Origin: a virus
DNA length: 5,360 bases
Virus record (IMG/VR): IMGVR_UViG_3300045988_013481
Span: 1-5,360 of that record
Strand: one strand, 5' to 3'
The notes under the pieces were generated by a model. It was given only the letters and a program-made list of their open reading frames with translations. It did not search any database and was not told where the DNA came from. Position numbers and translations under genes: made by a program. This document shows, piece by piece, positions 4,480 through 4,715 of this stretch (positions are counted from its first letter, which is position 1; each line of letters opens with the position of its first letter).

Positions 4480-4533
4480 GTGACTTTCCGGTTTCGCTCG
4501 TCGGACTGCCTTTAATTCGAATTTTCAACACTT

Positions 4534-4542
4534 TGTGGAAAA
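4534..4542 (-). promoter_or_regulatory. Exact match to the relaxed DnaA box TTWTNCACA (reads TTTTCCACA on the minus strand)
   Basis: The + strand reads TGTGGAAAA. It is the exact reverse complement of 4707-4715. Confidence 0.4.
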
Positions 4543-4581
4543 CTCATGCTTTTCAACATTTTCAACATACTTTTCAACATC

Positions 4582-4610
4582 ATTATACGCAATAGATTTT
4601 AGTCTGGTAA
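4582..4610 (-). promoter_or_regulatory. Possible secondary promoter between the two repeat clusters
   Basis: Minus strand reads TTACCA(4610-4605)-17 nt-TATAAT(4587-4582). The -10 is perfect and the -35 matches 4 of 6. Confidence 0.25.
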
Positions 4611-4706
4611 AGTGTTTCAACATTTCAACAAGTTTTCAACAAACTTTTCAACATTGAAATATGCTTATTTTTTACGATGTTATGTTTTAAATTTATAGTT
4701 TTCAAC

Positions 4707-4715
4707 TTTTCCACA
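4707..4715 (+). promoter_or_regulatory. Exact match to the relaxed DnaA box TTWTNCACA (TTTTCCACA)
   Basis: Seen directly in the sequence. It is immediately followed by GCCC and the CTA trinucleotide run. Confidence 0.4.

What the first reader, a model, noticed from the sequence alone, without database searches (positions are those of the whole stretch)
4522..4707. Nine-copy TTTTCAACA iteron array in an unusually long non-coding region
Seen: the region 4347-4809 (463 nt, about 9% of the genome) is non-coding, while nearly all gene junctions elsewhere abut or overlap. Within it lie six exact and three one-off copies of TTTTCAACA, all in one orientation. They form two clusters with 8-12 nt spacing, about one helical turn (4550-4579 and 4614-4653), plus outliers at 4522 and 4699. 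GC is about 26% by hand count (46/180 for 4521-4700).
Established: the relaxed DnaA box is TTWTNCACA, and the repeat differs from it only at position 6 (C to A). Clustered direct repeats at helical spacing are typical of initiator-binding iterons and DnaA-box clusters.
Inference: the array could be low-affinity DnaA sites for cooperative loading or titration of host DnaA. Alternatively it could bind one of the small phage proteins of unknown function.
Basis: partly seen in the sequence, partly recalled or inferred. Interest (0 to 1): 0.8.

Follow-up and report, generated by a model that had tools for sequence, protein, structure and literature searches.

The report
Host-origin mimic in a gut microvirus
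The repeat array is the outer half of a ~240-base copy of a bacterial chromosome replication origin (DnaA boxes, DnaA-trios and an AT-rich unwinding stretch) carried by a tiny single-stranded-DNA gut phage; this is unexpected for a rolling-circle virus and points to Ruminococcus/Oscillospiraceae-type bacteria as its host.

Summary
The array is only part of a larger conserved module (window ~4522-4766).

Two tandem boxes (TTTTCAAC·TTTTCCACA, 4699-4715) are followed by a 4-nt GCCC gap, then CTACTACTAC-GG-CTA (= 3'-GAT-5' DnaA-trios on the other strand), then an 88% AT stretch. This is the published "basal unwinding system" (BUS) of bacterial oriC.

The same 31 nt occur, letter for letter, between dnaA and dnaN of Ruminococcus flavefaciens and Oscillospiraceae genomes. 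There they lie downstream of arrays of the same TTTTCAACA box with the same 8/11-nt spacing. TTTTCAACA is therefore that clade's own origin box, not a degenerate site.

At least 150 gokushovirus genomes carry the module, in either orientation and in three placements next to the Rep gene VP4. Natural variants keep only the proximal boxes and trios.

Best reading: host DnaA binds and melts the phage's double-stranded replicative form here. What follows the melting (theta replication, or exposure of a Rep nick site) is unresolved. No published report was found. Everything rests on sequence comparison; no binding has been shown.

The parts
4522..4530 (+). Outlying distal DnaA-type box TTTTCAACA. 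With the inverted box at 4534-4542 it forms an imperfect palindrome.
   Evidence: (I1/I13). Present in only some relatives (A1).
4534..4542 (-). Inverted box TTTTCCACA (one mismatch to TTATCCACA; fits TTWTNCACA).
   Evidence: TGTGGAAAAC is conserved in 6 of 11 sequences of alignment A1. Host origins also carry occasional inverted boxes.
4550..4579 (+). Distal box cluster 1: three TTTTCAACA boxes, start-to-start 9 and 12 nt.
   Evidence: Positions conserved across 123 modules (peaks at -180 to -150 from the trios).
4614..4653 (+). Distal box cluster 2: GTTTCAACA, ATTTCAACA, TTTTCAACA, TTTTCAACA (spacing 8, 11, 12 nt).
   Evidence: Peaks at -105 to -75 in 123 modules. In other genomes the third position is TTATCCACA or TTATTCACA.
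4699..4707 (+). Upstream member of the tandem proximal box pair, TTTTCAACT (TTTTCAAC is ~98% conserved).
   Evidence: positions -21 to -14, not forced by the search pattern. Identical in bacterial dnaA-dnaN origins.
4707..4715 (+). Trio-proximal DnaA box TTTTCCACA (one mismatch to the consensus).
   Evidence: Strict BUS scan. Identical to the box of the S. elongatus scaffold unwound in vitro.
4716..4719 (.). 4-nt gap GCCC (the 'GC-rich region' of the published BUS).
   Evidence: about 4 bp on average. GCCC is the commonest gap in the bacterial hits.
4720..4734 (-). DnaA-trios. The + strand reads CTA CTA CTA CGG CTA, so the - strand reads 3'-GAT GAT GAT GCC GAT-5', the strand a DnaA filament would bind.
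   Evidence: Trio consensus 3'-GAT-5'. The rule of at least 3 trios is. The same interrupted pattern CTACTACTACGGCTAC occurs in Thermus and other origins.
4735..4744 (.). Phage-specific invariant block CAACAAGTTA; function unknown (candidate VP4 recognition or nick site).
   Evidence: Conserved in modules not selected on it. Absent from about 180 bacterial origins. Not enriched in module-less gokushoviruses.
4742..4766 (.). AT-rich stretch (25 nt, 88% AT), the putative DNA-unwinding element. On the - strand it doubles as the U-tract of the VP4 terminator.
   Evidence: Positions +24 to +33 are at least 95% A/T in 123 modules.
4767..4805 (-). Intrinsic terminator of VP4 (perfect 15-bp stem, 9-nt loop); it bounds the module.
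   Evidence: I4; dG -27.3 kcal/mol, z -4.9.
4372..4400 (-). Perfect sigma-70-type promoter (TTGACA-17-TGnTATAAT) for the small-ORF/VP5/VP3/VP1 block; it bounds the non-coding region on the other side.
   Evidence: 12 of 12 matches, with TG.
4810..5287 (-). 3' part of VP4, the HUH rolling-circle replication initiator. The gene starts at 545 and runs through the circle junction; the module abuts its stop codon.
   Evidence: (phrog_942, E 1e-104). HHH and YVAGY motifs are visible.

Best explanation
Window ~4522-4766 is a phage-borne version of the host's chromosomal replication-origin unwinding region, the dnaA-dnaN 'incC/oriC2'-type region of Firmicutes. It acts on the double-stranded replicative form (RF).

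DnaA also binds the tandem proximal boxes (4699-4715). From there DnaA-ATP oligomerises onto the DnaA-trios on the - strand (4720-4734). This stretches and opens the duplex into the adjacent AT-rich stretch (4742-4766).

Shown here: the sequence architecture; its identity to real bacterial origins; its conservation and mobility among phages.

Inferred: that DnaA binds and melts it.

Not resolved: what the opened DNA is used for. One option is loading of the host helicase for theta-type RF replication or plasmid-like persistence. The other is exposure of single-stranded DNA for the phage's HUH Rep, VP4.

The likely host is a gut Clostridium of the Oscillospiraceae/Ruminococcaceae group, with Selenomonas and some Lachnospiraceae also possible.
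For: (1) The window passes the published BUS rules in their strict form: box TTTTCCACA (1 mismatch), 4-nt gap, (CTA)3. Only 0.06% of shuffled genomes pass.

(2) Box-to-trio strand orientation, tandem 8-nt box offset and 4-nt GC gap match characterised origins. On the top strand these read: B. subtilis TTATCCACA·AATCCACA·GGCC·CTACTATTAC; C. botulinum TTATTAACA·TATCAACA·AGCC·(CTA)6; S. elongatus scaffold unwound in vitro TTTTCCACA·TTTTCCACA·GCCC·CTACTACTAC. C. difficile oriC2 trios read CACCTACTACTA....

(3) A generic tandem-box/gap/(CTA)3 pattern, with fewer than 1 chance hit expected, found at least 120 bacterial contigs. The phage-specific version found 59 species, mostly Oscillospiraceae, Ruminococcus and Eubacteriales gut MAGs. 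L339, L369, L371 and L363 are identical to the window over 30-31 nt. The flanking genes are DnaA and DnaN by Pfam.

(4) Those origins carry up to 18 co-oriented TTCAAC boxes upstream. Box usage is TTTTCAACA 63% and TTTTCCACA 16%, against 70% and 21% in the phages. Spacing peaks at 8 and 11-12 nt in both. BLAST gives 69-71% identity over about 200 nt to L342 and L360.

(5) At homologous positions, phage boxes interchange with canonical TTATCCACA and TTTTCCACA.

(6) The module is present in 123 pattern-ascertained genomes and 38 of 44 capsid-ascertained close relatives. All boxes are co-oriented with the trios (0 exact reverse copies) although VP1 and VP4 are only 32-56% identical.

(7) The module occurs in both orientations and three placements, and strand skew does not change with orientation, as expected for a self-contained duplex-DNA element.

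(8) Natural variants (KT264799/L003, L081) keep only the proximal boxes, trios and AT stretch. This parallels the B. subtilis finding that boxes 6/7 plus trios form the minimal unit and distal boxes are auxiliary and orientation-independent.
Against: No binding or unwinding experiment exists, so everything rests on sequence comparison. The AT-rich stretch is short (25 nt) and ends in a GC hairpin, whereas host origins have long T-rich elements. An RCR phage with an intact HUH Rep has no textbook need for DnaA. Cultured gokushoviruses (phiMH2K, Chp2), 36 environmental relatives and a few close relatives (L156, L158, L159) lack the module, so it is not essential to the family. The invariant phage-specific CAACAAGTTA is not explained by a pure DnaA model. 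The published permissive BUS rule (NAN trios) is weakly discriminating: 8.6% of shuffles pass the relaxed version. The argument therefore depends on the strict match and on identity to real origins. Conservation of positions 4720-4743 in the 123-genome set is partly forced by my search pattern; the unbiased support comes.
Confidence: 0.72

Rival explanations
1. Rolling-circle double-strand origin. The repeats are binding sites for the phage Rep (VP4), like the iterons next to the nick site in pMV158-type plasmids or CRESS-DNA viruses, and the conserved core holds the nick site. DnaA plays no part.
For: VP4 is an HUH initiator and the module always lies next to VP4. The core contains a phage-specific invariant block CAACAAGTTA. 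From memory, pMV158 RepB nicks within TACTACG/AC, which resembles CTACTACGAC in about half of the modules.
Against: The boxes and the 31-nt core are identical to bacterial dnaA-dnaN origins, which have no VP4. The boxes do not co-vary with VP4 across 32-48% identity. The only variable positions in the core (4730-4731) are exactly where the pMV158-type nick would fall. The module is inverted in 22% of genomes with no change in strand skew. No phiX-type origin string is present.
Confidence: 0.08
2. DnaA sponge or regulatory site only. The boxes bind DnaA to titrate it away from the host origin (like datA) or to make phage transcription respond to DnaA-ATP level. No productive unwinding or replication starts here.
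For: About 10 boxes per RF multiplied by a high RF copy number would sequester much DnaA. The distal clusters lie 120-300 nt upstream of a strong promoter. In class B genomes the module sits about 90 nt before the VP4 start codon. DnaA is a known transcription factor (general knowledge).
Against: A sponge needs no trios, no fixed 4-nt gap and no adjacent AT stretch, yet these are the most conserved parts. Natural variants discard the bulk of the boxes but keep the unwinding core. Placement relative to promoters is not conserved.
Confidence: 0.12
3. Complementary-strand (single-strand) origin. In the incoming ssDNA, the 4522/4534 inverted boxes fold into a hairpin carrying a duplex DnaA box that nucleates a DnaA-dependent primosome, like the R6K 'A site' (from memory).
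For: TTTTCAACA-CTT-TGTGGAAAA can form a 9-bp hairpin with one mismatch.
Against: Only one box pair is inverted and it is absent from many relatives. All other boxes are direct repeats that cannot pair. A strand-specific signal should not tolerate inversion relative to the genes.
Confidence: 0.04
4. Binding array for one of the small phage proteins, or functionless captured host DNA or an assembly artefact.
For: Three small ORFs of unknown function lie next to the region.
Against: The small ORFs have no DNA-binding family match, apart from the basic 42-aa protein that matches only a family of unknown function. The module is invariant across lineages with very different gene complements. It is present in more than 150 independent assemblies at consistent positions. 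It is conserved better than the proteins.
Confidence: 0.03

Closest known systems
Bacterial chromosome-origin basal unwinding system (BUS) with distal DnaA-box cluster: the B. subtilis incC / C. difficile oriC2 type (Richardson 2016 and 2019; Pelliciari 2021)
   Same: Tandem co-oriented DnaA boxes, about 4-nt GC gap, at least 3 GAT trios on the correct strand, AT-rich stretch, and an auxiliary upstream box cluster. The core is letter-identical over 31 nt to origins of Ruminococcus flavefaciens and Oscillospiraceae MAGs. Box variant frequencies and spacing also match.
   Different: It sits on a 5.3-kb ssDNA rolling-circle phage, not beside dnaA. The AT stretch is only 25 nt and is capped by a GC hairpin. 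A phage-specific invariant CAACAAGTTA follows the trios. It occurs in either orientation and in three placements next to the Rep gene.
DnaA boxes on plasmid and phage replicons (P1 oriR, F, pSC101, RK2 and lambda from general knowledge; phage T5 region, preprint 10.1101/866236)
   Same: A mobile replicon recruits host DnaA through consensus-like boxes.
   Different: Those replicons use one to a few boxes as helpers for their own initiator and iterons. As far as I found, none has the box-gap-trio unwinding unit or mimics a whole host origin region.
Iteron-type origins (pPS10, R6K, lambda ori)
   Same: Clustered direct repeats at roughly helical spacing in an AT-rich non-coding region.
   Different: Iterons are 17-22 bp, are bound by a replicon-encoded initiator and co-evolve with it. 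Here the unit is 8-9 nt, is invariant across divergent phages and is shared with bacterial chromosomes. The phage initiator is an HUH nuclease.
phiX174-type origin (30-nt site inside gene A)
   Same: Same virus family and a homologous Rep. The origin-like element lies next to or within the Rep gene.
   Different: No sequence similarity. The phiX origin has no DnaA boxes and relies on supercoiling and gpA alone (general knowledge).

Membership tests
Bacterial oriC basal unwinding system (BUS) | DnaA box with <=2 mismatches to TTATCCACA (or to the species-specific box) lying 0-16 bp from the trios | tested here: met
   TTTTCCACA at 4707-4715, 1 mismatch, 4 bp from the trios.
Bacterial oriC basal unwinding system (BUS) | At least three consecutive DnaA-trios (3'-NAN-5', consensus 3'-GAT-5') | tested here: met
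   4720-4728 = three consensus GAT trios on the - strand, then GCC, then a fourth GAT at 4732-4734. Relatives have 3-5.
Bacterial oriC basal unwinding system (BUS) | Strand relation: with the box written 5'-TTATCCACA-3', the trios read 5'-CTA-3' downstream on the same strand | tested here: met
   Same as B. subtilis, C. botulinum and S. elongatus in Tables S2/S3 and as about 180 bacterial loci.
Bacterial oriC basal unwinding system (BUS) | Second, tandem co-oriented box and about 4-bp 'GC-rich' gap (commonest arrangement) | tested here: met
   TTTTCAACT at 4699-4707 (8-nt offset, as in B. subtilis); gap GCCC at 4716-4719.
Bacterial oriC basal unwinding system (BUS) | AT-rich unwinding element beyond the trios | tested here: met
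   4742-4766, 88% AT; A/T-only run in 123 modules. It is shorter than in host origins.
Bacterial oriC basal unwinding system (BUS) | Located at the chromosome origin, typically beside dnaA/dnaN | tested here: not met
   It lies on a microvirus genome next to VP4. It is therefore an origin-like module on another replicon, not an oriC.
Bacterial oriC basal unwinding system (BUS) | DnaA- and ATP-dependent strand separation that requires boxes and trios | not testable with these tools
   Needs purified DnaA and the strand-separation assay of Pelliciari 2021.
Iteron-type plasmid/phage origin | Repeats of about 17-22 bp bound by a replicon-encoded iteron-binding initiator and co-varying with it | tested here: not met
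   The unit is 8-9 nt. The only initiator is an HUH Rep. The repeats are invariant across VP4 proteins of 32-48% identity and are shared with bacterial chromosomes.
Rolling-circle double-strand origin (nick site plus Rep-binding repeats) | Invariant nick sequence recognised by the HUH Rep, usually in a hairpin loop, with fixed polarity relative to the displaced strand | tested here: inconclusive
   An invariant candidate (CAACAAGTTA) exists, but there is no conserved hairpin around it. The module is inverted in 22% of genomes without a skew change. No phiX-like string is present. A nicking assay is needed.
DnaA-titration locus (datA-like) | Box cluster that sequesters or inactivates DnaA without an unwinding unit | tested here: not met
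   A complete box-gap-trio-AT unit is present and is the best-conserved part. Variants lose the box cluster but keep the unit.

The most novel reading that the evidence does not exclude
A hybrid origin. Host DnaA, guided by the mimicked host BUS, melts the duplex, and the phage-specific invariant CAACAAGTTA at the edge of the melted zone is the nick or recognition site of the HUH Rep VP4. Rolling-circle initiation would then be DnaA-triggered rather than supercoil-triggered, coupling phage replication to the host's initiation potential. Because the module occurs in both orientations, sister lineages would package opposite-sense strands.
Probability: 0.22. Interest if true: 0.92.

Novelty: new variant of a known kind. 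Interest (0 to 1): 0.8.

Why it matters
(1) Replication origins of gokushoviruses have, to my knowledge, not been mapped. This gives a concrete, testable cis element for a large gut clade.

(2) A rolling-circle ssDNA phage that carries a faithful copy of its host's DnaA-dependent unwinding unit suggests that microvirus replication can be tied to the host initiator. Possible consequences are sensing of growth state, plasmid-like persistence, or interference with host initiation through DnaA sequestration.

(3) The module works as a host fingerprint. The phage-type box/gap/trio string is confined to 59 of 185,579 species representatives, mostly Oscillospiraceae/Ruminococcaceae. This offers a sequence-only host prediction for abundant gut gokushoviruses whose hosts are, to my knowledge, uncultured and unknown.

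(4) It is a natural experiment on the BUS itself. The phages keep the minimal unit (two boxes plus trios) under strong selection and vary the auxiliary boxes, independently supporting the model derived from B. subtilis genetics.

Tried and rejected
- Structured RNA or tRNA: Rfam at E<=1 and ARAGORN found nothing.
- Coding potential: CTACTACTACGGCTACAACAAGTT could encode YYYGYNKL, and one bacterial hit (L132) is exactly such a coding chance match. In the phage the frame is closed by a stop 30 nt upstream. Variation is not codon-like, and the module is inverted in some genomes.
- Host-derived mobile element or prophage junction: the full core pattern occurs in only 2 bacterial contigs (one binned microvirus, one chance hit), and no plasmid holds the module.
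- dif/XerCD site: by eye there is no convincing 28-nt dif-like motif; not pursued.
- Spo0A box (TTCGACA, from memory): the repeat lacks the CG; rejected.
- pMV158-type nick TACTACG/AC (from memory): the G/A position coincides with the only variable dinucleotide of the core; rejected.
- phiX-type origin: no enrichment. CTTGATA in the terminator loop (4785-4791) is not conserved in relatives.
- Packaged-strand test: skews at VP1 four-fold sites do not differ between orientation classes. This is informative only if deamination bias is strong.
- General gokushovirus feature: strict and relaxed BUS scans of phiMH2K, Chp2 and 36 environmental genomes were negative.
- Independent host clue from capsid relatives in bacterial assemblies: only distant hits, none with the module.
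- One alignment run timed out and was redone on trimmed sequences.

Full report
WHAT THE WINDOW IS

The 5,360-nt window is a circular gokushovirus genome of 5,287 nt with a 73-nt assembly overlap. All genes are on the - strand:
- VP4 (HUH replication initiator, 340 aa; starts at 545, crosses the junction, ends at 4810)
- four small ORFs (4346-3726)
- VP5, VP3, VP1 (3021-1390) and VP2

Its closest GenBank relatives are faecal Microviridae from dog, human and pig at 81-92% identity. The non-coding region 4347-4809 is bounded by a perfect sigma-70-type promoter with an extended -10 on the - strand (4400-4372). On the other side it is bounded by VP4's intrinsic terminator (4767-4805; dG -27.3, z -4.9).

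THE OBSERVATION

There are six exact and three one-off TTTTCAACA copies on the + strand between 4522 and 4707. In the whole window there are 16 hits at <=1 mismatch against 1.49 expected, and 0 of 200 shuffles reach 16. GC of 4521-4700 is 25.6%.

Both fit the DnaA-box consensus TTWTNCACA outright.

THE ARRAY IS PART OF A LARGER CONSERVED MODULE

BLAST of the non-coding region finds a homologue of about 200 nt (window ~4551-4755) at 70-80% identity in about 45 gokushovirus records. The rest of those genomes barely aligns at the DNA level.

Alignment shows the boxes at conserved positions.

In 123 genomes every exact TTTCAACA copy has the same orientation relative to the core (none reversed). 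The copies fall in two clusters (-180 to -150 and -105 to -75) plus the pair abutting the core. This holds although VP1 and VP4 are only 41-56% and 32-48% identical to the window's.

Positions fixed by my search pattern cannot count as evidence of conservation. The unforced flanks can:
- TTTTCAAC is 98% conserved.
- The proximal box reads TTT[C/T][C/A]A[C/A].
- The A after AAGTT is 100% conserved.
- Nine following positions are at least 95% A/T.

In a sample ascertained only by capsid similarity, 38 of 44 genomes with VP1 >=51% identity carry the module. This count includes variants my pattern would have missed; several of the exceptions are partial contigs. None of 36 smaller environmental gokushoviruses carries it, nor do phiMH2K or Chp2.

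WHAT THE MODULE IS

At homologous positions different phages carry TTTTCAACA, TTTTCCACA, TTATCCACA or TTATTCACA, so the repeat belongs to the DnaA-box family.

The core matches the published basal unwinding system (BUS) of bacterial oriC. That system has a DnaA box within 16 bp of at least three DnaA-trios (consensus 3'-GAT-5'). There is usually a tandem second box and a gap of about 4 bp, followed by an AT-rich element.

Pelliciari's Table S2 and scaffold list, converted to the top strand, read:
- B. subtilis: TTATCCACA·AATCCACA·GGCC·CTACTATTAC
- C. botulinum: TTATTAACA·TATCAACA·AGCC·(CTA)6
- S. elongatus scaffold, unwound in vitro: TTTTCCACA·TTTTCCACA·GCCC·CTACTACTAC
- Window 4699-4729: TTTTCAAC·TTTTCCACA·GCCC·CTACTACTAC

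C. difficile oriC2 trios are written CACCTACTACTATTAC....

My scanner, built on the published rule but demanding (CTA)3, finds exactly this site in the window. It finds such a site in 0.06% of shuffled genomes.

COMPARISON WITH REAL ORIGINS

A generic pattern (two tandem TTWTNMAC-type boxes, 4 nt, CTACTACTA) has fewer than one chance hit expected in 596 Gb. These include origins with the same interrupted trio run CTACTACTACGGCTAC, for example Thermus arciformis.

The phage-specific version (TTCAAC-N-TTTCMACA-NNNN-CTACTACTA) returned a complete list of 59 species. Most are Oscillospiraceae, Ruminococcus/Ruminococcaceae, 'Eubacteriales' gut MAGs and Ruthenibacterium, plus Selenomonas and some Lachnospiraceae.

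In these genomes the site lies between a DnaA gene and a DnaN gene, confirmed by Pfam for representative loci. Several origins are identical to the window over 30-31 nt: R. flavefaciens L339, and L369, L371 and L363.

Their upstream 300 nt hold up to 18 co-oriented TTCAAC boxes (mean 5.4 forward against 1.1 reverse). Box-variant frequencies and spacing match the phage modules:
- TTTTCAACA: 63% in hosts, 70% in phages
- TTTTCCACA: 16% in hosts, 21% in phages
- Spacing peaks at 8 and 11-12 nt in both

The phage region resembles these origins along its whole length (69-71% over about 200 nt).

FEATURES OF THE PHAGE VERSION

(i) It is modular. It occurs in the window's orientation in 96 genomes and inverted in 27. 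There are three placements:
- A: just after the VP4 stop, reversed, as in this window
- B: co-oriented, ending about 90 nt before the VP4 start codon
- C: after VP4, co-oriented

(ii) Strand-composition skews, including at VP1 four-fold sites, do not differ between orientation classes. This fits an element that acts on duplex DNA irrespective of orientation.

(iii) Natural variants (KT264799/L003, L081) lack most of the distal array but keep the proximal boxes, trios and AT stretch. In B. subtilis, likewise, boxes 6/7 plus trios are the minimal unwinding unit. Distal boxes raise the local DnaA concentration and work in either orientation.

(iv) After the trios the phages carry an invariant CAACAAGTTA and only about 25 nt of AT-rich DNA (88% AT). 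The bacterial origins have long T-rich tracts and never this string. It is not enriched in module-less gokushoviruses. I cannot explain it.

MECHANISM

Best supported: on the double-stranded replicative form, host DnaA occupies the distal and proximal boxes. It oligomerises on the - strand trios (4720-4734) and melts into 4742-4766. The architecture and its identity to real origins are shown; binding and melting are inferred.

What the melting serves is open. It could load the host helicase for theta-type RF replication or persistence. It could instead supply the single-stranded substrate that an HUH nuclease needs, with CAACAAGTTA as a candidate VP4 site. The lack of skew reversal argues mildly against the module setting the packaged strand, but it does not exclude this.

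Rivals (Rep iterons or nick site alone, a DnaA sponge or regulator only, a hairpin-borne single-strand origin, a small-protein binding array, an artefact) each conflict with specific results listed under the rival explanations.

COMPARISON WITH THE KNOWN, AND NOVELTY

Structurally this meets every sequence-level criterion of a BUS-type origin region except chromosomal location. It fails the criteria for iteron origins. DnaA boxes on plasmids and phages are known (P1, lambda and others from general knowledge; T5). Searches of the held literature for gokushovirus or Microviridae with DnaA, and for DnaA-trio with phage, found no report of trios or an origin mimic in a microvirus or any phage. That library omits most subscription journals.

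I rate it a new variant of a known kind: a host-origin unwinding module transplanted onto a rolling-circle ssDNA phage, with a phage-specific addition.

CAVEATS

- No experiment supports binding.
- Host assignment rests on motif identity, and the candidate set includes several Firmicute families.
- Part of the core's apparent invariance in the large set is by ascertainment.
- Statements marked 'from memory' (pMV158 nick site, R6K A site, phiX/pC194 nick consensus) were not checked against sources.

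Noticed in passing
window 4372-4400 (- strand): Perfect sigma-70 promoter TTGACA-17-TATAAT with an extended -10 TG, upstream of the small-ORF/VP5/VP3/VP1 block. From general knowledge this fits a host with a canonical sigma-70-type promoter, such as a Firmicute, rather than a Bacteroidetes host.
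   Followed up: partly
window 4767-4805: Perfect 15-bp hairpin right after the VP4 stop, followed on the - strand by a U-rich tract (intrinsic terminator; the scan tool missed it because the loop is 9 nt). On the + strand its loop-stem junction reads CTTGATA, which from memory is the phiX174/pC194 nick consensus. The loop is not conserved in relatives, so this is probably coincidence.
   Followed up: partly
window 4735-4744: CAACAAGTTA directly after the DnaA-trios is invariant in all phage modules, including those not selected on it, but is absent from about 180 bacterial origins. Its function is unknown.
   Followed up: partly
window 4440-4479: Imperfect GC-rich hairpin (GTCATGCGGTAGGCGCGG / CCGTGCGAAGAGCATGAC) between the promoter and the box array. 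Many relatives instead have alternating CGCGTGCGCG-type palindromes just beyond the AT-rich stretch.
   Followed up: no
window 1357-1378: Hairpin AGCCGGGG-TTTTGT-CCCCGGCT between the VP1 stop (1390) and the VP2 start (1352), followed by a T-rich run on the - strand. It may be an attenuator or terminator between capsid and pilot genes.
   Followed up: no
L003 (KT264799) and L081: Natural variants, one 92% identical to the window genome-wide, in which a gene start abuts the proximal boxes and the distal box clusters are missing. Only 2-4 boxes plus the trios and AT stretch remain.
   Followed up: partly
L015, L018, L031 and about 17 others (class B): In one clade the module is co-oriented with the genes and ends about 90 nt upstream of the VP4 ATG. 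A conserved hairpin CCGGCACAAG...CTTGTGCCGG lies in between, so the layout is boxes-trios-AT-Rep gene.
   Followed up: partly
whole genomes, 123 loci: The coding strand is strongly A-rich over T, even at VP1 four-fold sites (skew about 0.5). This is the opposite of T-rich phiX174 (from memory) and is the same in both module-orientation classes.
   Followed up: partly
L375 (URNX01000007.1, 91-kb human-gut MAG contig): A gokushovirus-like VP1-VP2-VP4 gene block at the end of a long bacterial contig, possibly integrated. It is distant from this phage (VP1 46%) and lacks the module.
   Followed up: no
Pelliciari 2021 Table S1 (literature): AAAAGTTGT (the complement of TTTTCAACA) is listed as the species-specific DnaA box for Chlamydophila pneumoniae AR39, a host genus of classical gokushoviruses. 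Chlamydia phage Chp2 nevertheless shows no BUS-like site in my scan.
   Followed up: partly
window 3726-3854 (- strand): A 42-aa, very basic ORF (MTAMAKRTKMTSSKDKK...) matches a PHROG of unknown function. It is likely the small DNA-condensing protein of gokushoviruses (J/VP8-like, from general knowledge).
   Followed up: no
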